A DNA stretch of 64,000 bases from a bacterium (lineage in GTDB: Bacteria; Planctomycetota; JAFGQW01): NCBI GenBank assembly GCA_030426805.1, contig JAUHXU010000004.1, positions 46,792-110,791 of the forward strand, read 5' to 3'. Below the pieces are notes generated by a model. The model worked only from the letters and a program-made list of their open reading frames with translations, made no database searches and was not told where the DNA came from. Of the stretch, positions 1 to 57,265 are shown piece by piece. How positions within the stretch are numbered: the first letter of the stretch is position 1; each line of letters begins with the position of its first letter. The position numbers and the translations under genes are program-made.

Positions 1-204
1 GTCCTGTTCATGAGCCGCGTCGCCGAGGAAGAGGGAGCGTTCGACCTCGACGACGTGATCGCCGGCGTCACCGCGAAGCTGATCCGGCGGCACCCGCACG
101 TGTTCGAGTCGCCCCGACGGATTTCGATCGACGAGGCGTGGCGGAGTTGGCGTCGGATCAAGGCCGAGGAGAAGGGCCTTGATCGGCCCGACGGGACTGA
201 ATAG
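1..204 (+). CDS. MazG-family nucleoside triphosphate pyrophosphohydrolase, C-terminal part (5' end outside window)
   Basis: The frame is open from base 1. The motif EEEGAFDLDDVIAGVTAKLIRRHPHVF matches the MazG EExxE..RRHPHVF signature. Stop at 204. Confidence 0.6.
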   Translation, partial: VLFMSRVAEEEGAFDLDDVIAGVTAKLIRRHPHVFESPRRISIDEAWRSWRRIKAEEKGLDRPDGTE

Positions 205-289
205 GCTTATTTCCTACCCGGTATCGACACGGTCGCTCCTCGCGGACGGGCGGGTTCGCGACGAGACGTGGGAGCTGTGCATCATCGCG

Positions 290-1084
290 CCACCGAACTT
301 GACCTACGAACTGTACGGGCGCACCGACCGGGGCATCCAACGCGAAGCGAACGAAGACGCGTTCCTCGTCGCCGACCTCGACACCGGTGCGCTCGAAGCG
401 ACCGAGCGGTCGGTGCGCGTCGCGTCGGATCGCCCGCTGCTCGTCGCCGTCTCCGACGGCATGGGCGGGGCGAAGGCCGGCGAGGTCGCGAGCCGCTTGT
501 CGATCGAGGCGCTGCTGACCGCGGCGCGTGACGATCGCGTCGACGGCGATGTGCCGGACCCGGAGACGTCGCTGCGTCGCGACGTGGAGCGCGCGAACGA
601 CGTCGTCTTCGAGCGGTCGACGAACGATGCCGCGTGCGCCGGGATGGGCACGACGATGACCGCGCTGCTCGTGCAGGACGCGTCGTGCTACATCGCGCAC
701 GTCGGCGACAGCCGCGCGTATCTGCTGCACGACGGCGCGCTCCGGCGGCTGACGCGGGACCACAGCTTGCGCAACTTCGTCGTCGATCACGGATTGATGT
801 CGAGCGAGCAGGCCGACCGCCACGTCAACCGCCACGTCATCCTCGAGGCGCTCGGCGTGAAGGAGGACGTCACCGTCGACACCGGCATGCTCTCGTTGGC
901 CGCCGGCGACGTCGTGCTCCTCTGTTCCGACGGCCTCTACTCGACGATGGACGACGACGAACTCGCGCGCCGGCTCGGCGCTGCAGCCGACCTCGCGACG
1001 ATCGGCGACGACCTGATCGACGAGGCGAACCGCCGCGGCGGCCCCGACAACATCACGGTCGTGATCTGCCGCGTCGGCGCGTAG
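290..1084 (+). CDS. PP2C-family Ser/Thr protein phosphatase
   Basis: NEDAF and VSDGMGG(A)KAGEVAS motifs match PP2C metal-binding motifs, followed by DNITVVI. Start is uncertain; a TTG near 290 precedes the conserved domain, and the ORF opens at 179. Confidence 0.6.
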   Translation, partial: PPNLTYELYGRTDRGIQREANEDAFLVADLDTGALEATERSVRVASDRPLLVAVSDGMGGAKAGEVASRLSIEALLTAARDDRVDGDVPDPETSLRRDVERANDVVFERSTNDAACAGMGTTMTALLVQDASCYIAHVGDSRAYLLHDGALRRLTRDHSLRNFVVDHGLMSSEQADRHVNRHVILEALGVKEDVTVDTGMLSLAAGDVVLLCSDGLYSTMDDDELARRLGAAADLATIGDDLIDEANRRGGPDNITVVICRVGA

Positions 1085-1099
1085 CGCTCGCCGCCGTCC

Positions 1100-1657
1100 T
1101 CACAGGCCGATGTCGTCCGCGACGTCGCGCAGTGCGTCGATGACGATCGCGATCAACGCGTCCAACTCGATGCCGTACTCCTCGGCGCCTTGACGCACGT
1201 CGTCGCGGTTGACGCCGGCCGCGAAGCGCTTGTCCTTGAGCTTCTTCTTGACGCTCTTCACCTCGACGTCGGCGACGCGTTTGGACGGGCGGACCATCGC
1301 GACGGCGAACACGAGGCCGACCAGCTCGTCGACCGCGAACAGGGCGCGGGCCATCTCGGTGTCGCGCGCGACGCCGGTGTGGTTGCCGTGGCCGAGGATC
1401 GCCTGAACGATCGGCTCCGGGCAGCCGCGTTCGCGGAGGATCGGCGCGCCGTCGACGGGATGCTGCTCGAGCGTCGGGTGCACCTCCCAGTCGAAGTCGT
1501 GCAGCAGGCCGGCGAGCGCCCACGTCGACTCGTCGGCGTCGGCGCGTCGCGCCAGCGCGCGCATCGCCGCCTCGACACCGCGCGCATGCGCTAGCAGTGC
1601 TTCGCTCTTCGTGAACTCGTGCAGCAGCGCCTCGGCTTGGGCGTGGGTCAGCGTCAT
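1100..1657 (-). CDS. HD-domain phosphohydrolase (HDIG-like)
   Basis: Carries an LLHDFD H-D motif plus upstream and downstream His residues. Start taken at the internal Met MTLTHAQAEALL. Confidence 0.55.
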   Translation of the reverse strand: MTLTHAQAEALLHEFTKSEALLAHARGVEAAMRALARRADADESTWALAGLLHDFDWEVHPTLEQHPVDGAPILRERGCPEPIVQAILGHGNHTGVARDTEMARALFAVDELVGLVFAVAMVRPSKRVADVEVKSVKKKLKDKRFAAGVNRDDVRQGAEEYGIELDALIAIVIDALRDVADDIGL

Positions 1658-1796
1658 TGTCGCGTGCCTCGTTTCGGGACTCCGGGATGCCGTCTCACGA
1701 TGCAACGACCGCGCTCAGGGATCAACCGAGCGCGCCGTGATTCCGATCAAGAGTCCGACGGGTGGGAACGACTTTCCCGCCGCCGACGGAGATCGA

Positions 1797-3134
1797 ATGC
1801 AGCCACCACCGCACACGCCCGACCCAACCGACGCGCGTCCGCGTGCCGTCGTCGCGATCACGGCGGTCGGGTTGCGCGATGCGGTCGCCGCGGCGCTCGG
1901 CGACCACGCGTGTGTCGACGTGTGCGAGCCGAGCGGCCGCGAGGCGGCGCGTCTGGATGCCGATCTCGTCGTGCTGGATCTCGCAGTCGACCCGGCCGTC
2001 GCCGCGGGCTGGCTTCGCGCGTGCCGAGGCGGGGGCGTGCCGGTCATCGGCGTCGCGTCGCCGTCGGACCCGGTGGGCAGCACGAGTCGCGGCTTGCGTG
2101 GCGGCGCACACGCGGTGCTCTCGGCGGAGCGGGCAGCGGGCGCCATCGTCGCGGCGTTTCACGATGCCGTTTCGGTGCCGACGCGGGGGGAGGCCGCCGG
2201 CCTCGGCATGGTGGGACACAGCCCGGCGATCCGCGCCGTTCGCGCCGCGATCCGGCGTGCGGGTCCGGTCCGCGACGTTCCCGTTCTGATCCAGGGCGAG
2301 AGCGGGACCGGCAAGGAACTCGTCGCGCGGGCGATCCACCGGGCGACCGCGCCGGAGGAGCCGTTCGTCGCGGTCAACTGTGCTGCACTGACCGAAGCGC
2401 TGCTCGAGGCGGAGCTGTTCGGCTACGAGGCCGGTGCCTTCACCGGCGCCGCGCCCGAAGGGCGACGCGGCCTGTTTCGGGCCGCCGGCCGGGGCGTGTT
2501 GCTGCTCGACGAGATCGGCGAGATGACGCCGCGCTTGCAGGCGAAGCTGCTCCGCGTGCTGCAGGAGCGCACGGTGCGAGCGGTCGGGGCCGAGCAGGAC
2601 GACGCGATCGAGTGTCGGATCGTCGCATCGACGAACCGGACGCTCGCCGATGCGGTCGAAACCGGCACGTTCCGCCGCGACCTGCTCTACCGCCTCAACG
2701 CGTTCACGATCGACGTCGCGCCGTTGCGCGACCGGCCCGAGGACATCGTGCCGCTCGCTTGGCACTTCGTCCGGGACGCAGCCGCACGATTCGACCTGAC
2801 CGCGCCACGGCTCGCGAGCGATGCGATCCGGGCACTCCGCGCGCACCGGTGGCCGGGCAACGTCCGCGAGTTGCGCAACGTCATCGACGGCGCACTGTTG
2901 CGTGCGGTCGGCCCCGAGGTGACCGTCGCCGATCTCACGATCCAGAACGGCGAGCCCCGGGCGGTTCGTCCACGCCTGGCACTGCACTCGTATCGACTTC
3001 GTGACGCCGAAGCGCAGTTGATCGAGCTGGTGATGGAGGAGACCGGCGGCAACGTGTCTCGGGCGGCGGAGCGGCTCGGGATCAACCGCTCGACGTTGTA
3101 CGCCAAGCTGCGGGAGCGCCGGGCGGATGCGTGA
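1797..3134 (+). CDS. sigma-54-dependent Fis-family transcriptional activator (bEBP) with degenerate N-terminal receiver-like domain
   Basis: Has Walker A GESGTGKELVARAIH, an intact GAFTGA, WPGNVRELRNVI, and a C-terminal HTH NVSRAAERLGINRSTLYAKL. ATG at 1797 is preceded by GGAG. Confidence 0.8.
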   Translation: MQPPPHTPDPTDARPRAVVAITAVGLRDAVAAALGDHACVDVCEPSGREAARLDADLVVLDLAVDPAVAAGWLRACRGGGVPVIGVASPSDPVGSTSRGLRGGAHAVLSAERAAGAIVAAFHDAVSVPTRGEAAGLGMVGHSPAIRAVRAAIRRAGPVRDVPVLIQGESGTGKELVARAIHRATAPEEPFVAVNCAALTEALLEAELFGYEAGAFTGAAPEGRRGLFRAAGRGVLLLDEIGEMTPRLQAKLLRVLQERTVRAVGAEQDDAIECRIVASTNRTLADAVETGTFRRDLLYRLNAFTIDVAPLRDRPEDIVPLAWHFVRDAAARFDLTAPRLASDAIRALRAHRWPGNVRELRNVIDGALLRAVGPEVTVADLTIQNGEPRAVRPRLALHSYRLRDAEAQLIELVMEETGGNVSRAAERLGINRSTLYAKLRERRADA

Positions 3135-3280
3135 CGATCCCGCGCTGACACGCGGTGTCGGAATCCGCGACACCGTTCCGAGATTCGTACGGTGCACGGC
3201 CGCGGCGCACTGCGGGACGGGCGCACGCAACCGCAATCACTGCCGGGGGAAAGGACGTCCTTTCTCGGAGGCGGTCGGAA

Positions 3281-3296
3281 TGGCACACCATTTGTA
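3281..3296 (+). promoter_or_regulatory. candidate sigma-54 (-24/-12) promoter TGGCACaccatTTGT upstream of the second bEBP gene
   Basis: TGGCAC-N5-TTGT has consensus -24 and correct spacing. The -12 is GT rather than the near-invariant GC. It lies ~90 bp upstream of the ATG at 3387, in the only intergenic gap between the two bEBP genes. Confidence 0.3.
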
Positions 3297-3386
3297 AAAA
3301 CATTCGCGGCGCGAGACACGCGCACACATCGACGCAGGGACAGGAGCCGCCGGGGGGCCGGCGTGAATCGAACAGGGGACATCAGG

Positions 3387-4790
3387 ATGGGAACGCATCG
3401 GATTCTGGTCGTCGGCGAGCATGCCGACGAGCGGCGACTGCTCGAGGAAGCGCTCGCCGGTCACGTGGTGGAGAGTCGCGCGTCGGCCGACGACGCGATG
3501 ACGGCGATCGCACAGCACGCGTACGACGCGTTGTTCGTGTCGCGATCGTCGACGGACGAGTCGCTCGAGTCGTGGGTGGCGCGCGTGCGCGATCTGCACG
3601 CCGCGCTCCCGATCGTCGTGATCGACGACGCCGACGCGGCGCCGACCGGTCGCGGCGTCGCGCTGGTCGCCGTGCTTGCGCGGCCCGTCGGCCCGACGCA
3701 GGTGCACGCGGCTGTCGAGGCCGTTCGCCATGCGCTGCGCAGCGGGCACGAGGTCGCCTTTCTCCGGGACTACGCATTCGAGTCGCGCGACGTACTCGTC
3801 GGCGACTCGCCGGCGGCGCACGCGCTGGAACGGGCGATCGCCGAAGCGGCGACCCATCGGCGCCCGGTGCTGCTTCACGGCGAGCCGGGCACCGGCAAGC
3901 GAACGGCTGCGCTTCGACTGCACCGCACGAGTGCGCGTGCCGCGCAACCGTTCGTCGTCGTGGACTGCGGCGCGTCGCCCGAGGGGATGCTCACCCGCGA
4001 GCTGTTCGGCGGCCCGGGCCGGCACTGCGGCGAGACCGCCGGCCGGGTGGGGCTCGCCGACGGCGGCACGCTCCTCCTCGATCGCGTCGACCTGATGCCG
4101 CTCGGCTGCCAGGCGCGGCTCGCGGCGTTGCTCGCCGACGGCGCCTACGAGCGTGGCGACGGCGTGCGGACCGCGGTCGACGTCCGGATCGTCGCGACGA
4201 CGGTCCGCGACCTGCACCGCGCAGCCGAGTCGGGTGCCGTGCGCCGCGACGTGCTCGAGCGACTCGGCACGACGGTCATCGGGCTCGCGCCGCTGGCGGA
4301 GCGGGTCGAGGACATTCCGTTCCTGGTCGAGCACTTCATCGACGCGCTGGGTCCGCGCTCGACCGTGCGCGCGTTCGGGCCGGAGGCGATGGAGCGCTTG
4401 AGCGCCTACGAGTGGCCCGGCAACGTGCGCGAACTCGAGATCCTCGTGCAGCGCCTCGGCGTCCTCGACTTCGGCGAGGAGATCATGCCGGAGCACCTGC
4501 CGCCGGAGATCAGCGGCCAGCACGGTAGCGGCGATCCCTATTCGGCACTCGTCGGCATGAGCATCCACGACATCGAGCGTGAGATGATCCTGAAGACGCT
4601 GGACGAGACCGGCCACAACAAGACGGCCGCTGCGAAGGTGCTCGGGCTGACCGCGCGCACGCTGCACAACAAGCTGCGCCTGTATCGCGAGCAGGGGATC
4701 ATCGCCCAGGACGACTACCGACCGCTCCGGCGGGACGTCGGCCACCCGCACGGGGCGCGCCCGACCGAGACGCACTCCGAGCGCGTGTAG
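3387..4790 (+). CDS. bEBP-family AAA+ transcriptional regulator lacking the GAFTGA motif; receiver-like N-terminus without phospho-acceptor Asp
   Basis: Has GEPGTGKRTAALRLH, EWPGNVRELEILVQRL and C-terminal HTH HNKTAAAKVLGLTARTLHNKL. Where GAFTGA should sit, the sequence reads ELFGGPGRHCGETAGR. The N-terminal CheY-like fold has Ser at the expected Asp position (YDALFVSRSS). Confidence 0.75.
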   Translation: MGTHRILVVGEHADERRLLEEALAGHVVESRASADDAMTAIAQHAYDALFVSRSSTDESLESWVARVRDLHAALPIVVIDDADAAPTGRGVALVAVLARPVGPTQVHAAVEAVRHALRSGHEVAFLRDYAFESRDVLVGDSPAAHALERAIAEAATHRRPVLLHGEPGTGKRTAALRLHRTSARAAQPFVVVDCGASPEGMLTRELFGGPGRHCGETAGRVGLADGGTLLLDRVDLMPLGCQARLAALLADGAYERGDGVRTAVDVRIVATTVRDLHRAAESGAVRRDVLERLGTTVIGLAPLAERVEDIPFLVEHFIDALGPRSTVRAFGPEAMERLSAYEWPGNVRELEILVQRLGVLDFGEEIMPEHLPPEISGQHGSGDPYSALVGMSIHDIEREMILKTLDETGHNKTAAAKVLGLTARTLHNKLRLYREQGIIAQDDYRPLRRDVGHPHGARPTETHSERV

Positions 4791-4876
4791 GGGGATCAAG
4801 TTGCCGGGGACCCGAGTCGATAGAGCCGTTGGCGGAAACGATTTCGCTCCGCCGGGCGCTTTGGCCGGATCCTCGG

Positions 4877-4903
4877 TCAAGCGACGATGCGTGCGGCCGA
4901 CAA
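4877..4903 (+). promoter_or_regulatory. candidate sigma-28 (FliA) promoter TCAA-N15-GCCGACAA upstream of flgM
   Basis: The consensus is TAAA-N15-GCCGATAA. The element has the exact 15-nt spacer, one mismatch in each half, and ends 14 nt before the flgM ATG. Confidence 0.4.
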
Positions 4904-4916
4904 TTCGTCGTAGCGG

Positions 4917-5297
4917 ATGAACATCGACCGCACGAGACAGGAGACCGAAAGCATGCGTGAACACGTGACGACTCGGACCACGGAAAGCCGTCGGACCAAG
5001 CGCGGCCTGTCGGTCGGCTACCGCGACGGCCGCCGCAACGAGTTGCGCGAGGGCGCGCGTGGCCTCGAGTCGGGGCGCGTGCGCCGCGGCCTCCTGCGAA
5101 GCGCGTCGGCCGAGGACTGGGCCGCGTGCGACCGGGTCTGGAGCGAGGTGCGGCGTCGCCTGCGCGACGGCGGCACCCGCGCCGATCGCGTCGCTGCCGC
5201 CCGCGAAGCCCTCGAATCGGGCGCGCTCGACACGCCCGAGGCGCTCGACGCCTGCGCCGATGCGCTGCTGCGCGACGGCGAACCCACCGACCGGTAA
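4917..5297 (+). CDS. flgM: anti-sigma-28 factor FlgM
   Basis: The N-terminus MNIDRT matches enterobacterial FlgM MSIDRT. The C-terminal helix DRVAAAREALESGALDTPEALDACADALL resembles the FlgM sigma-28-binding region ERVEALKxAIRNGELKMDTGKIADxLI. It lies convergent with fliA. An alternative start at 4953 (MREHV) has a GGAGA RBS. Confidence 0.55.
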   Translation: MNIDRTRQETESMREHVTTRTTESRRTKRGLSVGYRDGRRNELREGARGLESGRVRRGLLRSASAEDWAACDRVWSEVRRRLRDGGTRADRVAAAREALESGALDTPEALDACADALLRDGEPTDR

Positions 5298-5313
5298 GAG
5301 ACGCTGGGCGCGC

Positions 5314-5562
5314 TTATCGCGTGCCGCGGCTCGCGTCGAGCAGCGCGCGGAGCCGCGCGACTTCGGCCTCGAGTTCGGCGATCCGCCGCTCTCGCGCCCA
5401 GAGCGCTTCCAGGACGGTCGCCTCGCTGCGCGGGCTGTCCGGGATCACGACGGTCGGTTCGTCGCTGCGTGGCGTCACGGGCGTCGGTGCTTCCGGCGGT
5501 GCGCTCGAGCACCCCGCCAAGCCTCCGATCGTCGCCCAGAGCAGGACGACTGCGGGCCTCAT
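5314..5562 (-). CDS. small lipoprotein with coiled-coil C-terminus, translationally coupled to fliA
   Basis: Signal peptide plus lipobox LAGC, then a coiled-coil stretch ERRIAELEAEVARLRALL. Its start overlaps the fliA stop by 4 nt. Confidence 0.45.
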   Translation of the reverse strand: MRPAVVLLWATIGGLAGCSSAPPEAPTPVTPRSDEPTVVIPDSPRSEATVLEALWARERRIAELEAEVARLRALLDASRGTR

Positions 5563-6314
5563 GACCGGCCGCCCGCGGCGGCGCGCTCGCGTCGCTCGAT
5601 CTCCTGGTTGAGATGGAGGATCGCGCGGCTGTGGATCTGCGAGACGCGCGATTCGGAGATGCCCATCAGCTCGCCGATCTCCTTCAGGAGCAGCTCCTGC
5701 TGGTAGTAGAGCATGATCACGCGTCGCTCGGGCTCGCTCAAGCGGCTGATCGACTGCTTGACGAGCTGTTTGAGTTCCTTCTTCGCGAACGCGTCGGCAG
5801 GGTCGACCGCCTTCGGGCTCGCGAGATAACGACTGGCGCTGTCTCGATCCGAGTCGTCACCGCCGACGTCGAGGCTCAGCCAGCTCAGGCTGCGCATCAT
5901 CAGCAGGATCTCGTCGACTTCGCGGAGCGAGACGCCGAGTCGTTCGGCGATCTCCGGCGCGCGTGCCGGGCGTCCGAGTTCGACCTCGAGCGCGCGACGT
6001 GCGTCGGTCAGAGCGCGGATTCGGTCGCGCTGCGTGCGCGGCACGAAGTCCTGGCGCCGCAACTCGTCGAGGATCGCGCCTTTGACGTTCGTGTAGGCGT
6101 ACGTCTTGAACGACGCGCCTCGATCGGGATCGAAGTTGCGGGCGGCGTTGATCAATCCGATCACGCCGGCGCTGAACAGATCCTCGCGATCGATTTGCGG
6201 GGGCAAGTTGATCGTCAAACGGCCGAGGATGTAGTTCACGAGCGGAAGGTAGTCGACGACGAGCTGGTCTTGCTCGTCCTGACTCCGTGCGGCCCGCTTT
6301 TTCGGCTCGACCAT
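5559..6314 (-). CDS. fliA: RNA polymerase sigma factor, FliA/WhiG (sigma-28) family
   Basis: Region 2 reads DLFSAGVIGLINAARNFDPDRGASFKTYAYTNVKGAILDELR. Region 4 HTH reads LLLKEIGELMGISESRVSQIHSRAI. Confidence 0.85.
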   Translation of the reverse strand: MVEPKKRAARSQDEQDQLVVDYLPLVNYILGRLTINLPPQIDREDLFSAGVIGLINAARNFDPDRGASFKTYAYTNVKGAILDELRRQDFVPRTQRDRIRALTDARRALEVELGRPARAPEIAERLGVSLREVDEILLMMRSLSWLSLDVGGDDSDRDSASRYLASPKAVDPADAFAKKELKQLVKQSISRLSEPERRVIMLYYQQELLLKEIGELMGISESRVSQIHSRAILHLNQEIERRERAAAGGRS

Positions 6315-6528
6315 CGCTCCCCCTCTTCCCTGTCGACATGCCGACCGGGAACCCGATCGACGTGTCGCTCTTCGTCAGCTTTCGGAAGCTGGGGTGGGGT
6401 GCTTTAACGGGGCGCGGTTTTGCGGGGCGGGGGAGTGCGCGTTCTTTTCACGCCTCGGGGCGGTTCGATTCGAGACCGGTGGTCAGTTCGTGCTGCAGTC
6501 GACGGTCGTGATTGACGATACGTCCGGC

Positions 6529-6753
6529 ATGGAACACGGACCACACAGCTCCGGCGTCGAGCCGAGCGACCCGCTCGAGCGGGTGATTCACCGCGTGAAC
6601 AACGCGCTGGCGGTCATGATGACCGAGAGCGAGTTGGCGGTGCTCACCGGTACGAACGCGACGCGCGTGCGCGCGCTTCGCTCGGTCGTCAAGACCGCCG
6701 AGGAGCTGAAGAACTACCTGCTCGCCGAGCAGCAAGCCGCGCTCGGTCGGTAG
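6529..6753 (+). CDS. hypothetical small protein (74 aa)
   Basis: ORF with ATG at 6529, divergent from fliA. No recognisable motifs. Confidence 0.3.
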   Translation: MEHGPHSSGVEPSDPLERVIHRVNNALAVMMTESELAVLTGTNATRVRALRSVVKTAEELKNYLLAEQQAALGR

Positions 6754-6762
6754 ACCGCGCGC

Positions 6763-7902
6763 TCAGCGCTGCGGCGTGACCGGTGTGACCGCCGGCGTCG
6801 GTTTCGCGGCCGGGCGCACGCCGTGGAAGCCGGCGACCGAGCGCACCTGCGTGCCGTCGTCGCCGCGCAGATAGGTGCCGCCGATCCCGCTCTGGCGCGT
6901 CAGTGCGCGTGCGTTGTGCTTGAAGGCGGAGTGGTGGCGGCCCGAACCGTCGTGCCCGAGCATCATCAGTTTGCCGGTCGCGTCGTAGCTTCCGAGCAAG
7001 ACGCCGGTCGGACCGTAGTGGTGGAGCTTGAGCTTGCCGTCGCTGCCCCAGGTCGACAGCGGGCGTCCGAACGCGTCGTAGGTCATGAAGGCGCGTTTGC
7101 CGTTGTTGCCGATCTTGCTCTGGGTCGCGTCGAGGTAGGGCGACGTCACGTGCACGGGCCGATGGTTCTGGTGCGTGAAGAAGACGTCGAGCCCCTTCGG
7201 GTTGCCCATGCCTTCCGGCAAGCCGGACAAGCGCCCGAGCCCGGGGTGATCGCGCAACGACCCCGCCGGCGTGAAGTCCGGGTTGAACGGTCCGCGCGGC
7301 AACGCCTCGAGTCCCGCGAAGCCCTTCTCGTTCCACCGGAAGCGCATGCGGTTGCCGCTCGCATCGGCCATCTCGGTGATGCGTCCACGGCCGTCGCGGC
7401 CGGGGCGTTCGGCCCATGCCGGGATGCGACTCGTGTTGAATGCTTGCACGTCCGGCGGCGACGAGAGGATCTCCTCGGCGTGGAGCGTGGACGGCGCGTT
7501 CATCAATTCGGCCAGCGTATCGACACCCGGTGAGGCGGGGTTCGGATCGTTGCGGAGCCCCCGGAGCGCGTTGCCGGCGTAGCCGCCGCGGATCTGCAGC
7601 AGGTCGGAGATCGTGCGCGGCTGCTCCCCACTCGTCGCGCCGGTCGGACGGGCGGGTTTGAGCAGGTCGAGCACGCCGCCGTTGGCTTTCTTCTCGCGAT
7701 CCGAACCGGTGACCTCGGTGTCCAGCAACTTCGACGGCGTGAGCTTCGTCGGATCCTCGCCGCGTTGCACGGCGCGCAGACGCTCGAGGAGCGACGGCTT
7801 GTGCGGGGCCGGGTCGGGCGTCTGCGCCGTGGCGGTGCCGGCGATGAGCGCTGCGAACGCGACCGCTGCGGCGGTCGGCGTGCTGAAACGTGTCGCGATC
7901 AT
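6763..7902 (-). CDS. secreted hypothetical protein with YD-like repeats
   Basis: N-terminal signal peptide MIATRFSTPTAAAVAFAALIAGTATAQ. Contains FMTYDAFGRP..HYGPTGVLLGSYDATGKL, reminiscent of YD/RHS repeats. Confidence 0.55.
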   Translation of the reverse strand: MIATRFSTPTAAAVAFAALIAGTATAQTPDPAPHKPSLLERLRAVQRGEDPTKLTPSKLLDTEVTGSDREKKANGGVLDLLKPARPTGATSGEQPRTISDLLQIRGGYAGNALRGLRNDPNPASPGVDTLAELMNAPSTLHAEEILSSPPDVQAFNTSRIPAWAERPGRDGRGRITEMADASGNRMRFRWNEKGFAGLEALPRGPFNPDFTPAGSLRDHPGLGRLSGLPEGMGNPKGLDVFFTHQNHRPVHVTSPYLDATQSKIGNNGKRAFMTYDAFGRPLSTWGSDGKLKLHHYGPTGVLLGSYDATGKLMMLGHDGSGRHHSAFKHNARALTRQSGIGGTYLRGDDGTQVRSVAGFHGVRPAAKPTPAVTPVTPQR

Positions 7903-17101: not shown

Positions 17102-18304
17102 CTACACGCGGCCGAGCGCGTCGCGCAGCGCGGCTGCGAGCCACGCGATGTGCTCCGGTCGGTGGTCCGCGCGTACGGTCCAGCGCACGAGTTCGCCGCG
17201 GTCGGCCGCCGGGTAGACGAAGGGCGCGAGGAACACGCCGTGTGCGCGGCCGCACGCGTCGACCGCTTCGGCGCGCGGCGCGTCGATCGCGAAGATCGGG
17301 ACCGGCGAACCGCCGGTCCCGATGCCGACCCGCGAGCACGCGGCGTGCACGCGCATCACGTTCGTCCGCAGCCGCTCGACGCGGTCGGGTTCGTCGACGA
17401 CGATCGCGAGTGCCGTGCGGGCCGCGACCGCGAGTGCCGGCGCGAGCGCGGTGCTCGCGCGGTAGGCGTGGCTGTGGTCGCGCACCGCATCGCACAGCGC
17501 ACGGTCACCGGCGACGTAGCCGCCGTGCGCGCCGAGCGCCTTGCTGTAGACGCCGGTGCGGCAGGTCCGTACCGGGTCGATGCCCGCGTGCTCGAACACG
17601 CCGCGCCCCTCCGGGCCGATCGTGCCGATCGCGTGCGCCTCGTCGACGACGAGGATGCCGTCGTCGCCGACCGCATCGAGCAGGTCCGCGACCGGTGCGA
17701 TCGCGCCGTCGACCGCGAACACGCCGTCGGTGATCAGCCCCGCCCGCCCGTCCCGGGCTCGCGCGAGGCGGCGCGCGTCGTCCGCGTCGCGATGGCGGAA
17801 GTGCTCGACCGGCTTGCGCGACTGCCGGAGCGCGACGGCGATGCTCGGGTGCGCGTTCGCGTCGCACAACCAGTGGTCGACCCGGTCGTCGAGCACTTCC
17901 ACCGCGGCGAGGTTCGCGAGGAAGCCGGCGGGCAGGCTCAGGCACGCCTCGACGCCGAGGAACGCCGCCGTGTCGCGCTCGAGCGCGACGTGCGGCGCGA
18001 GCCGGCCGGTCGTGACCGGCGATGCGCTCGCACTCGTTCCAAACGCGGCGAGCGCGTCGCGTGCGGCGTCGACGACGCGCGAGTCCCCGGCCAACCCGAG
18101 GTAGTTCGTCCCCGTGAACGCGACGAGTTCGCTGCCGTCGACGAGGGTGGTGGGGCCGGCCGGCACGGTCAGCGCCCGAGTCGCTGGCGCCAGGCCCAGC
18201 GGTAGAGGTTGCGGCTGTCGACGTAGCGCGCCGCCGACGATTGTGCACCGAGCACGACGAGCAACAGCCGTTTGCCGTCGCGCTCCGACATCGACGCGAG
18301 GCAC
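17102..18304 (-). CDS. alpha-oxoamine synthase family PLP enzyme (8-amino-7-oxononanoate synthase BioF-like)
   Basis: N-terminus VGARRQTAVARRAR...LVDGSELVAFTGTNYLGL parallels the BioF region ending ...NFSSNDYLGL. PLP-lysine region reads GVYSKALGAHGGY. The only in-frame start is GTG at 18304, which overlaps the upstream gene's 3' end by ~136 bp. Confidence 0.6.
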   Translation of the reverse strand: MPRVDVGARRQTAVARRARCTIVGGALRRQPQPLPLGLAPATRALTVPAGPTTLVDGSELVAFTGTNYLGLAGDSRVVDAARDALAAFGTSASASPVTTGRLAPHVALERDTAAFLGVEACLSLPAGFLANLAAVEVLDDRVDHWLCDANAHPSIAVALRQSRKPVEHFRHRDADDARRLARARDGRAGLITDGVFAVDGAIAPVADLLDAVGDDGILVVDEAHAIGTIGPEGRGVFEHAGIDPVRTCRTGVYSKALGAHGGYVAGDRALCDAVRDHSHAYRASTALAPALAVAARTALAIVVDEPDRVERLRTNVMRVHAACSRVGIGTGGSPVPIFAIDAPRAEAVDACGRAHGVFLAPFVYPAADRGELVRWTVRADHRPEHIAWLAAALRDALGRV

Positions 18305-26878: not shown

Positions 26879-29675
26879 CGCCTGCGTCGCGCTGCTTCTC
26901 GGCGCCGCGATGTGCGGCGCGGTGTCCGCTCAACCGACCGATCCGGTCGCGCAGCGACTCGGCACAATGACGCTCGACGAGAAGGTCGGGCAGTTGCTCG
27001 CGATCGCGTTCACCCCGCGCGACGGGGCGACGGCTGCCGGCTTCGACAAGCACGTCCGCGACGTCCGCGAACTCGGGATCGGCGGCGTCACGTTCTTCCG
27101 CGGATCGGTCGGGCCCGTGCGGGAGTGCCTCGCCGCGCTTTCCGCAGCCGCGAAGACGCCGCTCGCGGTCATGTCGGACGTCGAGTTCGGGCTGCCGATG
27201 CGCGTCAACGAGGGGACGCGGATGCCGCTCAACATGGCGCAGGGGGCGACCGGCGATCCGTCGCTCGCCTACCAGGCGGGACGGGTGACGGCGATCGAGG
27301 CGCGGGCGGTCGGCATCCACGTCGCGTTCGCGCCCGTCGTCGATGTGAACAACAACCCCGGCAACATCATCATCAACACGCGTTCCTACGGCGAGGATCC
27401 GGCCGCGGTCGGGCGCTTCGGGAGCGCGTTCATCCGCGGGCTGCAGGAGCACGGTGTGTTCGCGACCGCGAAGCACTACCCCGGTCACGGCGACACGTCG
27501 GTCGACTCGCACCTGTCGCTGCCGACGATCGACGCGTCTCGCGAGCGGCTGGAACGCGTCGAACTGGCGCCGTTCGCCGCGGCCGTCAAGGCGGGGGTGC
27601 GGTGCGTGATGGTCGGGCACATCACGTTCAGTCGCGTCCCGGAGATGAAGGGGCGGCCGGCGAGCCTCGACCCGCACTTCGTGGATCGGGTCTTGCGCGG
27701 GTCGATGGGCTTCGACGGCCTCGTGATCACGGACGCGATGAACATGGGCGGCATCACGGAGCACTACGGGCACGGCGAGGCCGCGGTGATGGCGATCGAG
27801 GCCGGCGTGGACGTCGTGCTGATGCCGGGTGACGTGCGTGCCGCGCACGCCGCGCTCGTCGCCGCGGTGAAGACCGGCCGACTCGCGAAGGCGCGGCTCG
27901 ACGCGTCGGTCGAGCGCATCCTGCGATTGAAGGCCGATGCGGGCCTGCTCGGGGGCGGCACGCGGCCGGCGCCGGGCGCGGTCGAGACCGTCCTGCGCGC
28001 GCCGGATCACGTCGCGGTCGCCGAGCGGATCGCCGATCGGGCGGTCACGCTCGTCGCCGACCGGCGCGGTGTCGTTCCGCTCGCCGCGGAGCGACTGCGC
28101 GACGTCGTCGTCGTCACGGTGACCGACGAGCGCCGCGGTCGAACCCGAGGCGGTGCGTTTCTCGCCGAAGTGCGTCGGCGGATCCCGGACGCGGCGGCGG
28201 AGCGGATCGACCCGACGACGTCCGCGAAGGCAGCGGCGGCGATCGTCTCGCGCGCGAAGAAGGCGGACGCGGTCGTCGTCGCGATCACCGTGAAATGGCG
28301 CGACCGCAAGGGGAGCATCGCGCTGCCGGACGAGACCGTCGAGCGACTCGCGCGCCTCCTTCGGATCAAGACGCCGCTCGTCGTCGTCGCGTTCGGGTCG
28401 CCGTACGTGCTCGGACAACTCCCCGCTGCACCGGCGGCGCTGTGCGTCTACGACCCGTCGACGCTCGCGGCCGGCGCGGCGGCGCGGGCGCTCTTCGGCG
28501 AGTGCGCGATCGGCGGGCGGCTGCCGGTCTCGATTCCCGGACGTTTCGCGCGCGGCGTCGGGCTCGACCGAGCCGCCCGTACGATGACACTCGAGCGGGC
28601 GCTCGACGACAAGCGGTTCCGGGCGGCGTGGTCGGTGCTCGAGGAGCGGATCGAGAAGAAGGTCTTCCCCGGCGCCCAGGTCGCGATCGTGCGCGATGGC
28701 GCGCTCGTCGCGAGCCGCGGCTTCGGCCGACTGACCTACGACGACAACGCGTCGAAGGTGACGACGGAGACGGTCTACGACGTCGCGTCGGTGACGAAGG
28801 TCGCTGCGACGACGACGGTCGCGATGGTGCTCGCCGATCGCGGGGCGCTCGACCTCGACAAGCCGGTCGTCGACTACCTGCCGTCGTTCAGCGGCGGCGG
28901 CAAGGAGGGCGTCACGGTGCGCCACCTGCTGACGCACACGTCGGGCTTGCCGGCGTGGGCGAAGCTGTGGAGCCACGGGGATCGCGCAGCGGCGTTGGCC
29001 TACATCGACGGCGTGACGCTCGCGTCACGGCCGGGGGCGAAGGCGAAGTACTCCGACCTCGGGATGATCACGCTCGGGCGCGTGCTCGAACGCGTCGGCA
29101 AGGCACCGCTCGACGAACTCGCGCGCGACCTCGTGTTTGCACCGCTCGGGATGACGCATACGACGTTCCGGCCGCCGGCCGCGTGGCGACCGCGGATCGC
29201 GCCGACCGAGGAGGGGGGCGACCTCGATCGCGGGCGCATTCTCGGCGACGTGCACGACGAGAACGCCCATTTCCTCGGCGGCGTCGCCGGGCACGCGGGA
29301 GTCTTCTCGACGGCCGAGGACCTCGCGGTCCTCGCGCAGGCCTACCTCGACGGCGGCATGCACCGCCATCATCGACTGTTCCGACCGGCGACCGTCGAGG
29401 CGTGGACGTCGCGACAGAACCTCGTCGTAGGCAGCAGTCGGGCCCTCGGTTGGGACACGCCGAGCGCGCGCGGCTCGCTCGCCGGCGACCGCTTCTCGAA
29501 GCAGAGCTTCGGCCACACCGGCTTCACCGGGACGTCGATCTGGGTCGACCGGGCGCGTCGCATCGCGATCGTCTTGCTGACGAACCGCGTGCACCCGACC
29601 CGCACCCGTGGCGGCATGCGGGAAGCGCGCCGGGCGTTTTACAACGCGGCGATGAAGGCGGCGATCGCCCGGTGA
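26859..29675 (+). CDS. fusion: GH3 beta-N-acetylhexosaminidase (NagZ-like, two-domain) + C-terminal beta-lactamase-family serine hydrolase
   Basis: Signal peptide present. GH3 motifs include KHYPGHGDTSVDSHL and the catalytic region VITDAMNMGGI. The C-terminal ~340 aa has SVTK (SxxK) and HLLTHTSGLP, matching class-C/PBP4*-like beta-lactamases. Confidence 0.8.
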   Translation: MRSIFRSACVALLLGAAMCGAVSAQPTDPVAQRLGTMTLDEKVGQLLAIAFTPRDGATAAGFDKHVRDVRELGIGGVTFFRGSVGPVRECLAALSAAAKTPLAVMSDVEFGLPMRVNEGTRMPLNMAQGATGDPSLAYQAGRVTAIEARAVGIHVAFAPVVDVNNNPGNIIINTRSYGEDPAAVGRFGSAFIRGLQEHGVFATAKHYPGHGDTSVDSHLSLPTIDASRERLERVELAPFAAAVKAGVRCVMVGHITFSRVPEMKGRPASLDPHFVDRVLRGSMGFDGLVITDAMNMGGITEHYGHGEAAVMAIEAGVDVVLMPGDVRAAHAALVAAVKTGRLAKARLDASVERILRLKADAGLLGGGTRPAPGAVETVLRAPDHVAVAERIADRAVTLVADRRGVVPLAAERLRDVVVVTVTDERRGRTRGGAFLAEVRRRIPDAAAERIDPTTSAKAAAAIVSRAKKADAVVVAITVKWRDRKGSIALPDETVERLARLLRIKTPLVVVAFGSPYVLGQLPAAPAALCVYDPSTLAAGAAARALFGECAIGGRLPVSIPGRFARGVGLDRAARTMTLERALDDKRFRAAWSVLEERIEKKVFPGAQVAIVRDGALVASRGFGRLTYDDNASKVTTETVYDVASVTKVAATTTVAMVLADRGALDLDKPVVDYLPSFSGGGKEGVTVRHLLTHTSGLPAWAKLWSHGDRAAALAYIDGVTLASRPGAKAKYSDLGMITLGRVLERVGKAPLDELARDLVFAPLGMTHTTFRPPAAWRPRIAPTEEGGDLDRGRILGDVHDENAHFLGGVAGHAGVFSTAEDLAVLAQAYLDGGMHRHHRLFRPATVEAWTSRQNLVVGSSRALGWDTPSARGSLAGDRFSKQSFGHTGFTGTSIWVDRARRIAIVLLTNRVHPTRTRGGMREARRAFYNAAMKAAIAR

Positions 29676-32422: not shown

Positions 32423-32509
32423 TCGCCCGCCGGGGGAGCCGCCGCGGCTTCCATGGTAGACTGGCGGCGATGGCCCGGCCGGGCCCAGGGGTGACTTGAA
32501 GGAGTTTCG

Positions 32510-56195: not shown

Positions 56196-56278
56196 CGTCG
56201 GCATCCCGGGGGTTGCGGGGACCGTGAACGAAAAAGGCACCCACGACGTCGCGCGCCGCAGGTGCCTCTCGGTGTATG

Positions 56279-56356
56279 TGGTACCCCCAAGGGGATTCGA
56301 ACCCCTGTCTGATGGCTGAGAACCACCTGTCCTAGGCCGGGCTAGACGATGAGGGC
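56279..56356 (-). tRNA. tRNA-Glu (anticodon CUC)
   Basis: Manual fold gives acceptor GCCCUCA/UGGGGGU, D-arm GUCU..GGAC, anticodon stem GGUGG/CCAUC with loop UUCUCAG (CUC), T-arm AGGGG-UUCGAAU-CCCCU, discriminator A and encoded CCA. Closely parallels E. coli tRNA-Glu. Confidence 0.75.
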
Positions 56357-56518
56357 ACTGATTCGAGGATTGTGCCTTTCGTATCCGCCATCCGGGCGGG
56401 AAAGTCAAGCGACCACCGGCGAAAACGCCCGTCACCGGGGTTTTCGCGTGGGCCCCGTTGCCGCACCCCGCTTCTCTCGGCAAGCGGGCGTCGTGTGCGC
56501 CCCGACGAGGAGCGTTCG

Positions 56519-57190: not shown

Positions 57191-57265
57191 TGGCTGGGGA
57201 ACTAGGATTCGAACCTAGACCGGCGGATCCAGAGTCCGCTGTCCTACCATTAGACGATTCCCCAG
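57191..57265 (-). tRNA. tRNA-Gln (anticodon CUG)
   Basis: Acceptor UGGGGAA/UUCCCCA, discriminator G, CCA. Anticodon stem GCGGA/UCCGC with loop CUCUGGA. T-arm GGUUCGAAUCC. Parallels E. coli tRNA-Gln. Confidence 0.75.

What the first reader, a model, noticed from the sequence alone, without database searches (positions are those of the whole stretch)
3387..4790. bEBP paralog that has lost both the GAFTGA loop and the receiver phospho-Asp
The AAA+ domain keeps Walker A/B and the arginine-finger context, but GAFTGA is replaced by GGPGRHCGETAGR. The N-terminal CheY-like domain has Ser instead of the phospho-acceptor Asp. Such proteins (like TyrR, or R. capsulatus NtrC) cannot remodel sigma-54 holoenzyme. 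It may therefore act with sigma-70 or as a repressor or heteromeric partner of the intact upstream paralog (1797..3134).
Basis: seen in the sequence. Interest (0 to 1): 0.6.

Follow-up and report, generated by a model that had tools for sequence, protein, structure and literature searches.

The report
Catalytically dead NtrC-like DNA-binding regulator
This gene encodes a conserved relative of the sigma-54 activator proteins that has lost every part of its ATP-driven motor and its phosphorylation site but keeps a nearly invariant DNA-binding domain. It therefore most likely works as an ordinary DNA-binding regulator in a small group of Planctomycetota, a new variant of the already known "atypical" activators.

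Summary
ORF 3387..4790 (+) has REC-like, AAA+, lid and Fis-type HTH domains. It lacks GAFTGA and has Ser52 where the phospho-Asp should be.

Two points need correction. Walker B is not kept (LLLDRV, DE->DR), and the Glu-switch Asn and sensor-I Asn are also lost. The protein is not a recent paralog of the neighbour (32% identity).

It belongs to a small Planctomycetota clade of 10 proteins, two clusters at 50% identity among 1.84 billion representatives. All 10 lack the phospho-Asp (invariant Ser), GAFTGA Thr, the Walker B DE pair and both Asn, and all keep the Walker A Lys. This lineage adds a 5-residue in-frame L1 deletion.

It is not an artefact: the sequence is identical in three assemblies, an 85% ortholog has the same loop, and dN/dS is 0.17. 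The HTH and tail are 85-89% identical across the clade, against 42-59% for the AAA+ core.

A -24/-12 sigma-54-type promoter (3281..3296) and a palindrome (3156..3172) lie upstream of the gene. They occur in 4 of 5 lineages that have the intact neighbour and in 0 of 2 that lack it.

The locus carries sigma-28-type promoters and fliA.

Best reading: an ATPase-dead, sigma-54-blind transcription factor whose synthesis is driven by the intact neighbour. This is a new variant of the atypical bEBPs (VpsR, NtrX, TyrR), of moderate interest.

The parts
3387..4790 (+). Gene for the degenerate bEBP-like regulator (467 aa): pseudo-receiver, long linker helix, dead AAA+ domain, lid, HTH_8 and a conserved tail
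   Evidence: ORF and Pfam. Identical protein in three assemblies. dN/dS 0.17 against the 85% ortholog. AF2 model pLDDT 78.5, with the AAA+ core superposing on ZraR/FleQ at rmsd 2.2-2.7 A.
3387..3692 (+). Pseudo-receiver (aspartate-less REC-like) domain. Ser52 (3540..3542) is at the phospho-Asp site, GE (3414..3419) at the acidic pair, Asp at the beta4 Thr site and Arg at the beta5 Lys site. The alpha4 region is shortened.
   Evidence: Alignments. Ser52 is invariant in 10/10 clade members. No Pfam Response_reg hit and only a sub-threshold FleQ-domain hit (20.7 vs 22 bits). AF2 secondary structure. dN/dS 0.31.
3879..3902 (+). Walker A, GEPGTGKR, intact
   Evidence: G165, G168, G170 and K171 are invariant in the clade.
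3999..4058 (+). L1 loop remnant, ELFGGPGRHCGETAGRVGLA. GAFTGA is removed by a 5-residue in-frame deletion.
   Evidence: Alignments. The same loop is in P0002. No GAFTGA in any frame. pLDDT <50 at residues 212-214.
4068..4091 (+). Degenerate Walker B, TLLLDRVD (DE->DR)
   Evidence: 0/10 clade members keep the D-E pair, and all outgroups do.
4617..4733 (+). Fis-type HTH (NKTAAAKVLGLTARTLHNKLRLY) plus the clade-specific tail REQGIIAxDxYRPLRR, the most conserved part of the protein
   Evidence: 85-89% identity across the clade, against 42-59% for the AAA+ core. Invariant columns. dN/dS 0.08.
3281..3296 (+). Sigma-54-type -24/-12 promoter-like element, TGGCACACCATTTGTA, 107 nt upstream of the ATG. 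The -12 position is GT rather than GC in this lineage.
   Evidence: It is the only <=1-mismatch hit in 64 kb. It is conserved at the same place in L088, L084 (TGGCACCGTGTTTGCA), L087 (TGGCATCGCCTTTGCA) and L091 (GG-N10-GC core). It is absent in L085/L004 and L005, which have no neighbour, and in L089/L090.
3154..3174 (.). Palindrome GGTGTCG-N7-CGACACC, a candidate enhancer (UAS) about 120 nt upstream of the -24/-12 element
   Evidence: It is the only perfect TGTCG-N7-CGACA in the window. It is conserved by sequence, with non-compensatory mismatches, in L088, L084, L087 (two copies) and L091, always 106-125 nt from the promoter. It is not terminator-like.
1797..3134 (+). Intact bEBP neighbour (GAFTGA, Walker B DE, Arg fingers). 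Its receiver keeps the Asp but has lost the acidic pair and Lys in this genome.
   Evidence: Pfam Sigma54_activat 199.7 bits. Alignment with the L084 and L087 orthologs, whose REC is intact and whose HTH LGINRSTLYxKLR is invariant.
1722..1748 (+). Sigma-28-type promoter-like element, TCAAC-N15-TCCGATC, upstream of the bEBP pair
   Evidence: Conserved in all lineages examined. In the neighbour-less loci L085 and L005 it directly precedes the degenerate gene.
4877..4903 (+). Sigma-28-type promoter-like element, TCAAG-N14-GCCGACAA, upstream of the conserved small ORF
   Evidence: Conserved in window, L088, L084, L085 and L005.
4953..5297 (+). Conserved small ORF (114 aa) of unknown function, always immediately downstream of the degenerate bEBP
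   Evidence: Synteny and alignment. No Pfam family. The FlgM comparison was not significant.
5559..6314 (-). FliA/WhiG-family sigma-28 gene with its own sigma-28-type promoter at 6406..6379 (-)
   Evidence: TIGR02479 234 bits, cutoff 189.6. Promoter TAAAG-N15-TCCGAAAG conserved in five lineages.
179..1084 (+). Stp1-like PP2C Ser/Thr phosphatase, syntenic with the regulator in all lineages with enough flanking DNA
   Evidence: NF033484 231.6 bits, cutoff 230. Synteny.

Best explanation
The gene encodes a functional, sigma-54-independent transcription factor that descends from an NtrC-family response regulator.

Its AAA+ domain is a pseudo-enzyme. It probably still binds nucleotide, because Walker A is invariant. 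It cannot hydrolyse ATP, because the Walker B Glu, the Glu-switch Asn and the sensor-I Asn are gone. It cannot touch sigma-54, because the L1 loop is mutated in the clade and deleted here. Its receiver is a pseudo-receiver that cannot accept phosphate on Asp.

What selection maintains is the Fis-type HTH and a clade-specific C-terminal tail. The protein therefore most likely acts by binding DNA, probably as a dimer held by the long linker helix, to repress or activate promoters read by sigma-70 or sigma-28 RNA polymerase. This is how VpsR, NtrX and TyrR work.

Because it has no phospho-switch, it is controlled mainly through its synthesis. In this genome and three other lineages it has its own sigma-54 promoter with an upstream palindrome, most likely bound by the intact bEBP next door. 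In two lineages without that neighbour a sigma-28-type promoter precedes it directly.

The locus also holds fliA and sigma-28-type promoters, with che genes nearby in one relative. This places the protein in a sigma-28 (motility or swarmer-cell) regulatory module.

Shown here: the residue losses, their conservation, purifying selection, the retained fold, and the conserved promoter-like and palindromic elements with their co-occurrence with the neighbour.

Inferred: lack of ATPase activity, DNA binding as the function, the neighbour activating this gene, and the link to motility.
For: - Residue table: 10/10 clade members keep Walker A Lys. 0/10 keep the N64, T86, D107-E108 or N149 equivalents. 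All outgroups and the neighbour keep every one.
- Clade delimitation: E-values drop from 1e-90 to 1e-63 after P0010. Only two 50%-identity clusters exist among 1.84e9 representatives, and the next full-length hits are intact. All relatives are Planctomycetota MAGs.
- The gene is not decaying. dN/dS is 0.17 overall, 0.12 in the AAA+ domain, 0.06 in the lid and 0.08 in the HTH, against 0.14 for the neighbour and 0.07 for fliA.
- Selection has shifted to the DNA-binding domain. HTH plus tail are 85-89% identical against 42-59% for the AAA+ core. The intact neighbour shows the opposite pattern, 65% in AAA+ and 57% in HTH.
- The fold is retained, and the best full-length structural match is the atypical bEBP NtrX.
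- The -24/-12 element and the palindrome sit 106-125 nt apart in 4 of 5 lineages with the neighbour and in 0 of 2 without it. In L084 the palindrome lies 557 nt from the neighbour's stop codon but keeps a 122-nt distance from the promoter.
- Sigma-28-type promoters are conserved at three places in the locus, and fliA is identified by TIGR02479.
- Precedents for sigma-54-independent bEBP homologs: PMC6158489 and bioRxiv 10.1101/2023.06.06.543975.
Against: - No binding site for the protein itself was found. Searches for palindromes and k-mers shared by all lineages gave only promoter elements or coding-sequence conservation.
- The -12 element in this lineage is GT rather than the canonical GC, so the promoter may be weak or decaying here.
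- One neighbour-containing lineage (L089/L090) lacks both the promoter and the palindrome.
- No rpoN, histidine kinase or flagellar structural gene lies in the window, so the sigma-54 and motility links rest on motifs and synteny only.
- The AAA+ domain is still under clear purifying selection (dN/dS 0.12), so it does something that DNA binding alone does not explain, such as nucleotide sensing, oligomerisation or partner binding.
- Loss of ATPase activity is inferred from residues, not measured.
Confidence: 0.62

Rival explanations
1. Poison or partner subunit. The dead AAA+ domain co-assembles with the intact neighbour, or with other bEBPs, into mixed rings. It either damps their activity, giving negative feedback because the neighbour induces it, or is required for their activity, as in HrpR/HrpS or FleQ/FleT.
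For: - The tandem arrangement is found in 5 of 7 lineages.
- The AAA+ and lid domains are under purifying selection although catalytically dead.
- Walker A is invariant, so nucleotide-dependent assembly is possible.
- The neighbour probably induces this gene, which would give an incoherent loop.
Against: - Two lineages keep the gene without an adjacent intact bEBP.
- The best-conserved module is the DNA-binding domain, with a recognition helix different from the neighbour's.
- The two proteins are only 32% identical and are not a co-evolved recent duplicate pair.
- The R-finger and sensor-II Arg are lost in several clade members.
Confidence: 0.17
2. Ligand-sensing regulator of the FleQ/VpsR type. 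The dead AAA+ domain or the pseudo-receiver binds a nucleotide second messenger such as c-di-GMP, or ATP/ADP, which switches DNA binding or the contact with RNA polymerase.
For: - Invariant Walker A and purifying selection on the AAA+ domain.
- FleQ and VpsR are the closest functional analogues, and both bind c-di-GMP (PMC6158489; PMC12632262).
- There is a weak FleQ-domain hit in the N-terminus.
- HD-domain, MazG and metallophosphoesterase genes are syntenic.
Against: - By my recollection of the FleQ structure work, the FleQ c-di-GMP contacts are not conserved. R185-N186 align with Leu-Arg here (alignment), and there is no LFRS-like motif before the AAA+ domain.
- The FleQ-domain hit is below Pfam's cutoff.
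- No cyclase or phosphodiesterase with a recognisable GGDEF, EAL or HD-GYP signature was found nearby.
Confidence: 0.13
3. Relic. The gene is a decaying remnant of a sigma-54 activator with no remaining function in this genome.
For: - This lineage shows the most erosion: the L1 deletion, the alpha4 region of the receiver lost, and a -12 GT promoter variant.
- The neighbour's receiver is also eroded here.
Against: - The 467-codon frame is intact.
- dN/dS is 0.17 overall, with 0.06-0.12 in the AAA+, lid and HTH regions.
- The sequence is identical in three assemblies.
- The DNA-binding domain is 82-90% identical to orthologs whose overall identity is 43-47%.
Confidence: 0.03

Closest known systems
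VpsR of Vibrio cholerae (atypical bEBP, PDB 7v2b)
   Same: It has the REC, AAA+ and HTH architecture. GAFTGA is absent, Walker B is non-consensus, and no ATPase activity was detected. It acts at sigma-70 promoters (PMC6158489). It appears among the sequence and fold matches.
   Different: VpsR keeps the receiver Asp and is switched by c-di-GMP. Here the Asp is Ser, and the Glu-switch and sensor-I Asn are also lost. There is no evidence for c-di-GMP binding. The lineage is different (Planctomycetota) and sequence identity is only 25% in the fold alignment.
NtrX (Brucella abortus, PDB 5m7n/o/p) and the L1-deleted NtrC proteins of Rhodobacter capsulatus and Caulobacter
   Same: These are NtrC-family response regulators with a shortened L1 loop lacking GAFTGA, and they act independently of sigma-54. 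NtrX is the best full-length structural match (E 2e-31).
   Different: Those proteins keep the phospho-Asp and depend on it. R. capsulatus NtrC needs ATP binding, and the Caulobacter authors predict that their NtrC needs ATP binding and hydrolysis. The present clade has lost the Asp and the hydrolysis residues. The L1 deletion here is an independent event inside an already degenerate clade.
FleQ (Pseudomonas aeruginosa flagellar master regulator)
   Same: It is a bEBP with an aspartate-less REC-like N-terminal domain that dimerises without phosphorylation (PMC12632262) and belongs to a flagellar regulatory hierarchy with FliA. FleQ AAA+ structures superpose on the model at rmsd 2.4-2.7 A.
   Different: FleQ has GAFTGA and an active ATPase and activates sigma-54 promoters. 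The FleQ-domain Pfam hit here is below threshold. Here the gene lies downstream of sigma-28 and sigma-54 promoters rather than at the top of the hierarchy.
TyrR / PhhR
   Same: They are bEBP homologs without a functional GAFTGA that regulate sigma-70 promoters as repressors or activators through a C-terminal HTH (listed as atypical EBPs in PMC6158489).
   Different: They have ACT/PAS sensory N-termini instead of a receiver. The NCBIfam TyrR score is far below its cutoff (121 vs 576 bits).
HrpR/HrpS and FleQ/FleT tandem bEBP pairs
   Same: Two adjacent bEBP genes, one of which could modulate the other.
   Different: As far as I recall, in those pairs both partners have GAFTGA and catalytic residues and act together on sigma-54. 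Here one partner is dead, has its own highly conserved DNA-binding domain, and persists without the other in two lineages.

Membership tests
Canonical bEBP (sigma-54 activator, PF00158) | AAA+ fold with Walker A P-loop | tested here: met
   PF00158 2.5e-33. GEPGTGKR is present and invariant in the clade. AF2 core superposes on ZraR, FleQ and NtrC1 at rmsd 2.2-2.9 A.
Canonical bEBP (sigma-54 activator, PF00158) | GAFTGA motif on the L1 loop, which contacts sigma-54 | tested here: not met
   The loop is FGG-PGRHCGE with a 5-residue deletion. Clade relatives have GAFPGA, GAFSGA, GAFAGA or GAFPDA. No GAFTGA in any frame.
Canonical bEBP (sigma-54 activator, PF00158) | Walker B hhhhDE with the catalytic Glu and its Glu-switch Asn partner | tested here: not met
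   Walker B is LLLDRV, and the Asn position is Asp (VVVDCG). 0/10 clade members keep either feature (PspF numbering from a sequence recalled from memory, positions checked computationally).
Canonical bEBP (sigma-54 activator, PF00158) | Sensor I Asn, Arg fingers and sensor II Arg | tested here: inconclusive
   The sensor-I Asn is Val. The R162, R168 and R227 equivalents are kept in this protein but kept in only 6/10 (R168) and 5/10 (R227) of the clade.
Canonical bEBP (sigma-54 activator, PF00158) | ATP hydrolysis and sigma-54 open-complex formation | not testable with these tools
   Needs ATPase and in vitro transcription assays.
Atypical (sigma-54-independent) bEBP homologs: TyrR, PhhR, HupR, HsfA, NtrX, VpsR, Rc/Cc NtrC | bEBP homology combined with loss or alteration of GAFTGA | tested here: met
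   Definition as used in PMC6158489.
Atypical (sigma-54-independent) bEBP homologs: TyrR, PhhR, HupR, HsfA, NtrX, VpsR, Rc/Cc NtrC | Regulates promoters read by a sigma-70-family holoenzyme | not testable with these tools
   No target sites were identified. Needs ChIP-seq and in vitro transcription.
Response-regulator receiver (PF00072) | Active-site quintet: DD acidic pair, phospho-Asp, Thr/Ser, Lys | tested here: not met
   The positions read GE, Ser52, Asp and Arg. There is no PF00072 hit for this protein. The (beta-alpha)5-like fold is partly retained with alpha4 missing. It is therefore a pseudo-receiver or ALR domain (PMC4395418, PMC12632262).
FleQ family | FleQ N-terminal domain (PF06490) | tested here: inconclusive
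   20.7 bits against a cutoff of 22. Other clade members hit PF00072 instead.
FleQ family | c-di-GMP-binding residues in the AAA+ domain (LFRS, R185/N186, ExxxR) | tested here: not met
   The R185-N186 positions align with Leu-Arg (alignment to FleQ). The residue list is from my recollection of the FleQ structure literature, not checked in a paper here.
FlgM anti-sigma-28 (for the downstream small ORF 4953..5297) | Sequence similarity to FlgM (PF04316) | tested here: not met
   No Pfam hit at E<=10. hhalign against Salmonella FlgM (sequence from memory) gave probability 1.4%. Only the position and a sigma-28-type promoter suggest it.

The most novel reading that the evidence does not exclude
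The receiver has been rewired from His-Asp to Ser/Thr signalling. The invariant Ser at the exact phospho-acceptor position comes with Glu-Glu replacing the Asp-Asp pair and Arg replacing the Lys in most clade members. This Ser would be phosphorylated by a Hanks-type kinase and dephosphorylated by the Stp1-like PP2C phosphatase that is syntenic in every lineage. That would give a phospho-Ser switch in a receiver fold that controls a motor-less bEBP.
Probability: 0.06. Interest if true: 0.8.

Novelty: new variant of a known kind. Interest (0 to 1): 0.4.

Why it matters
Atypical bEBPs are used as examples of how an ATP-driven sigma-54 activator can become an ordinary transcription factor. This clade is an unusually complete case. 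The phospho-switch, the sigma-54 contact and the hydrolysis residues are all gone, yet the protein is under purifying selection and its DNA-binding domain is nearly frozen.

The different lineages also show successive stages of decay: a point-mutated GAFTGA, then loss of Arg fingers, then deletion of L1.

The comparative data give a testable circuit in Planctomycetota, whose developmental and motility regulation is almost unstudied: sigma-28, then an intact bEBP with sigma-54, then the dead bEBP.

It also warns annotators. The protein is labelled 'sigma-54-dependent Fis family transcriptional regulator' in public records, which is almost certainly wrong.

Tried and rejected
1. Frameshift or assembly artefact: rejected. 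The protein is identical in three assemblies, the ortholog has the same loop, and no GAFTGA appears in other frames.
2. Pseudogene: rejected by dN/dS.
3. Recent tandem duplicate of the neighbour: rejected (32% identity).
4. In-situ ortholog of the intact sister proteins L006, L007 and L024: their loci share no synteny, so the history of the locus is unresolved.
5. The palindrome as a terminator of the neighbour: rejected. It has no T-run and is not paired in the MFE fold (z = -1.6). The mismatches between lineages are non-compensatory. In L084 it tracks the promoter, not the neighbour's stop codon.
6. Search for the regulator's own binding site, using palindromes shared by at least 4 lineages and shared k-mers in intergenic regions. 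It returned only GC-rich chance or coding matches and sigma-28-type promoter elements.
7. FlgM identity of the downstream small ORF: not supported.
8. A simple sigma-70 promoter scan found nothing in 1600..6800, which is uninformative in 70% GC DNA.
9. Rfam: only two tRNAs, far from the locus.
10. Literature: full-text searches returned no paper that mentions Planctomycetes together with flagellar or sigma-54 regulation terms.
11. The window's own genome is not among the GTDB representative genomes scanned. The taxon is therefore inferred from relatives only.
Full report
**What is at the coordinates**

The window is about 70% GC. ORF 3387..4790 (+) has the codon-position GC pattern of a real gene (GC3 0.87). 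A longer in-frame ORF opens at 3192.

Pfam finds Sigma54_activat (2.5e-33, 115.6 bits), AAA_lid_14 and HTH_8. The upstream gene 1797..3134 scores 199.7 bits on the same Sigma54_activat model. The N-terminus gives no Response_reg hit and only a sub-threshold FleQ-domain hit (20.7 bits against a cutoff of 22).

**Checking the observation**

Alignment with intact relatives and with solved bEBPs confirms these points:
- The L1 loop reads ELFGGPGRHCGETAGR where relatives have ELFGHERGAFTGA.
- Ser52 (codon 3540..3542) occupies the phospho-acceptor Asp position. It aligns with the Asp of A. aeolicus NtrC1.
- Walker A (GEPGTGKR), the two Arg of VRRDVLERL and the sensor-II Arg are present.

It reads LLLDRV, so the catalytic Glu is Arg. 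The Glu-switch Asn is Asp, and the sensor-I Asn is Val. The PspF numbering comes from a sequence I recalled from memory, with positions checked by script. The receiver's acidic pair is GE, the beta4 Thr is Asp and the beta5 Lys is Arg.

No GAFTGA-like peptide exists in any of the six frames. The protein is identical in three independent metagenome assemblies. An 85%-identical ortholog from a fourth sample has the same shortened loop. A frameshift or assembly artefact is therefore excluded.

**It belongs to a small, uniformly degenerate clade**

The homolog search gives P0001 (100% identity), P0002 (85%) and P0003-P0010 (43-47%, E 1e-90 to 1e-107). There is then a sharp drop to 1e-63 for generic bEBPs. 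A profile of these ten was scored against 1.84 billion 50%-identity representatives. Only two clusters belong to the clade (850 and 700 bits). The next full-length hits (478 bits or less) are intact activators.

All named relatives and genome loci are Planctomycetota MAGs. Intact sister proteins in other Planctomycetota (L006, L007, L024; 35-36% identity) share the MxIERxLIA start. They have DDD, the phospho-Asp, GAFTGA and LLLDEIGE.

The residue table gives the following for the clade, while all outgroups and the neighbour are intact:

| Residue (PspF numbering) | Kept in clade |
|---|---|
| Walker A Lys | 10/10 |
| Glu-switch Asn (N64) | 0/10 |
| GAFTGA Thr (T86): Pro x5, Ser x2, Ala x1, deleted x2 | 0/10 |
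| Walker B D-E pair (D107-E108) | 0/10 |
| Sensor-I Asn (N149) | 0/10 |
| R168 | 6/10 |
| R227 | 5/10 |

Ser at the phospho-site is invariant. The 5-residue L1 deletion in this lineage is thus the last step in a degeneration that began in the clade's ancestor.

Among 257 non-clade homologs retrieved, 16 have point variants of GAFTGA. None combines an L1 deletion with loss of the DE pair.

**The gene is maintained by selection, mainly on the DNA-binding end**

The table gives dN/dS between the window and the P0002 locus, where dS is about 0.5.

| Region or gene | dN/dS |
|---|---|
| Whole target gene | 0.17 |
| Pseudo-receiver | 0.31 |
| AAA+ | 0.12 |
| Lid | 0.06 |
| HTH | 0.08 |
| Neighbour (C-terminal part) | 0.14 |
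| fliA | 0.07 |

Across the clade the HTH and a clade-specific tail (LYREQGIIAxDAYRP) are 85-89% identical, while the AAA+ core is 42-59% identical. The intact neighbour across the same lineages shows the usual opposite pattern, 65% in AAA+ and 57% in HTH.

An AlphaFold2 model has mean pLDDT 78.5. It keeps a REC-like domain that lacks alpha4, a long linker helix (residues 103-132), the AAA+ core, the lid and the HTH. The L1 remnant has low confidence. Foldseek's best full-length match is Brucella NtrX, itself an atypical bEBP (E 2e-31). The AAA+ core superposes on ZraR, FleQ, NtrC1 and PspF at rmsd 2.2-3.0 A.

**Genomic context**

Gene order is conserved across lineages whose regulator is only about 45% identical:
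1. metallophosphoesterase
2. MazG
3. Stp1-like PP2C phosphatase
4. HD-domain protein (minus strand)
5. intact bEBP, in some lineages only
6. degenerate bEBP
7. small ORF
8. small lipoprotein-like ORF (minus strand)
9. FliA/WhiG sigma (minus strand; TIGR02479 234 bits against a cutoff of 189.6)

One relative also has cheW, cheD and cheR 5 kb further on.

The intact bEBP is present in five lineages: window/P0002, P0007, P0004, P0003 and P0009/P0010. It is absent in two: P0005 and P0008.

The neighbour's orthologs have complete receivers. In this genome the neighbour has lost the acidic pair and the Lys. Its HTH (LGINRSTLYxKLR) is invariant.

**A sigma-54 promoter and an enhancer-like palindrome upstream of the dead bEBP**

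The only match in 64 kb with at most one mismatch to TGGCAC-N5-TTGCW lies at 3281..3296, 107 nt before the ATG. The window-wide count at two mismatches or fewer is not above chance (7 against 10.4 expected). The argument therefore rests on conservation.

The element sits at the same place in other loci:
- L088: TGGCACACCGTTTGTA
- L084: TGGCACCGTGTTTGCA
- L087: TGGCATCGCCTTTGCA
- L091: CGGCATGAGGTTTGCG, with the GG-N10-GC core kept

The surrounding intergenic DNA is otherwise poorly conserved, with 40% mean column identity.

A palindrome, TGTCG-N7-CGACA, lies 106-125 nt upstream of the promoter. Position 3156..3172 is the only perfect copy in the window. It recurs in the same four lineages, with two copies in L087. 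Its mismatches between lineages are not compensatory. It is not followed by a T-run and is not paired in the minimum-energy fold. In L084 it lies 557 nt after the neighbour's stop codon yet 122 nt from the promoter. It therefore behaves as a protein-binding enhancer, not as a terminator.

Both elements are absent from the two neighbour-less lineages. They are also absent from P0009/P0010, where the two genes are about 125 nt apart and probably form an operon. The tally is 4 of 5 lineages with the neighbour and 0 of 2 without it. The simplest reading is that the intact neighbour activates transcription of the dead bEBP. This is an inference.

In this lineage the -12 dinucleotide is GT, not GC, so the promoter may be weak.

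**Sigma-28-type promoters**

Three conserved elements of the form T(A/C)AA-N16/17-CCGA occur in all lineages examined:
- Upstream of the bEBP pair (window 1722..1748). In the neighbour-less loci this element directly precedes the degenerate gene.
- Upstream of the small ORF (4877..4903). TCAAG-N14-GCCGACAA is close to the TAAAG-N14-GCCGATAA consensus as I know it.
- Upstream of fliA itself (6406..6379, minus strand).

A similar site precedes cheW in L084. The loose pattern has 5 hits in the window against 1.5 expected.

The regulator thus sits inside, and apparently downstream of, a sigma-28 module. The small ORF is FlgM-like only by position. Pfam and hhalign do not support that identity.

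**Mechanism**

The most likely mechanism is a sigma-54-blind, ATPase-dead DNA-binding transcription factor. It has no phospho-switch and is controlled mainly through its synthesis, which is driven by the intact neighbour with sigma-54, or by sigma-28 directly where the neighbour is missing.

Retention of Walker A and purifying selection on the AAA+ domain suggest that nucleotide binding or oligomerisation still matters.

I could not find its binding site. No rpoN, kinase or flagellar structural gene lies in the window, which otherwise holds housekeeping and peptidoglycan-turnover genes.

The rivals are these:
- A poison or partner subunit for the neighbour. The tandem arrangement makes this plausible, but the neighbour-less lineages and the distinct, highly conserved DNA-binding domain weaken it.
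- A FleQ/VpsR-like ligand sensor. The known FleQ c-di-GMP residues are not conserved.
- A relic gene, which the selection analysis refutes.

**Comparison with known systems**

This is an 'atypical EBP' in the sense of PMC6158489, alongside TyrR, PhhR, HupR, HsfA, NtrX and VpsR. It also resembles the L1-deleted NtrC proteins of R. capsulatus and Caulobacter (bioRxiv 10.1101/2023.06.06.543975).
- VpsR is closest in having lost both GAFTGA and the Walker B consensus, with no detectable ATPase.
- FleQ is the precedent for a bEBP with an aspartate-less receiver (PMC12632262, PMC4395418).

None of these precedents, as described in the papers read here, combines all three losses. The clade is restricted to a few Planctomycetota and is annotated in public records simply as 'sigma-54-dependent Fis family transcriptional regulator'.

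I rate it a new variant of a known kind, of moderate interest. The most novel reading still open is that the invariant Ser at the phospho-site, next to a syntenic PP2C phosphatase, is a phospho-Ser switch. I give that a low probability.

Noticed in passing
window 4953..5297 (+), promoter-like 4877..4903: A conserved 114-aa ORF lies directly downstream of the regulator in every lineage. It is preceded by a near-consensus sigma-28-type promoter (TCAAG-N14-GCCGACAA). Its C-terminus looks FlgM-like by eye, but Pfam finds nothing and hhalign against FlgM gives 1.4% probability.
   Followed up: partly
window 6406..6379 (-), 1722..1748 (+); L084:16544: Sigma-28-type promoter-like elements (T[AC]AA-N16/17-CCGA) are conserved across about five lineages. 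They lie upstream of fliA itself (suggesting autoregulation), upstream of the bEBP pair, and upstream of cheW in L084. The loose pattern has 5 hits in the window against 1.5 expected.
   Followed up: partly
window 1797..3134 (+): The 'intact' neighbour bEBP has itself lost the receiver's acidic pair (DD->TA) and the conserved Lys in this genome. Its orthologs in L084 and L087 have complete receivers. Both regulators in this lineage may therefore be uncoupled from a histidine kinase.
   Followed up: partly
window 5314..5562 (-): An 82-aa ORF overlaps the fliA stop codon. It has a lipoprotein-like signal (LAGC) and a conserved coiled-coil C-terminus (LEALWxxERRIAELE). It is syntenic in L088, L084 and L085, and its function is unknown.
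   Followed up: no
window 6529..6753 (+): A conserved small ORF of about 74 aa is transcribed divergently from fliA (VIHRVNNALAVMMTESELAVLTG...). It is found in L088, L005 and L084 and has no family assignment. The listed ORF start at 6394 is probably too far upstream.
   Followed up: no
window 179..1705: An Stp1-like PP2C Ser/Thr phosphatase (NF033484, 231.6 bits) and a divergent HDIG-domain protein lie here. Related contigs have MazG and a metallophosphoesterase further upstream. All are syntenic with the regulator across the clade, and no Ser/Thr kinase is nearby.
   Followed up: partly
window 18169..35467: A cluster of unusual peptidoglycan-turnover fusion proteins. It includes a class-A beta-lactamase-like domain fused to a PG-binding domain and an S11 D-Ala-D-Ala carboxypeptidase (18169..20154, minus strand). 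It also includes a GH3 (NagZ-like) domain fused to a beta-lactamase/transpeptidase-like domain (26730..29675), and Germane, Golvesin_C and Amidase_3 domains in one protein (32510..35467). GHL10 and NAGPA-domain proteins lie between them.
   Followed up: no
window 6763..7902 (-): A 379-aa secreted-looking protein with a faint RHS-repeat hit. It is syntenic across the clade loci at 31-35% identity and its function is unknown.
   Followed up: no
window 56282..56356 and 57194..57264 (-): Two tRNA genes (Rfam RF00005, 48.8 and 64.9 bits). The first lies inside the 5' part of the long ORF 54402..56567 that I used for the RecJ-like protein, so that ORF's true start is probably further downstream.
   Followed up: no
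L084:9204..9700: The intergenic region between the two bEBP genes in this relative is expanded to about 800 nt. It holds several short tandem repeats: GAA runs, GCGATT/GCGATA units and CTCAAGCC units.
   Followed up: no
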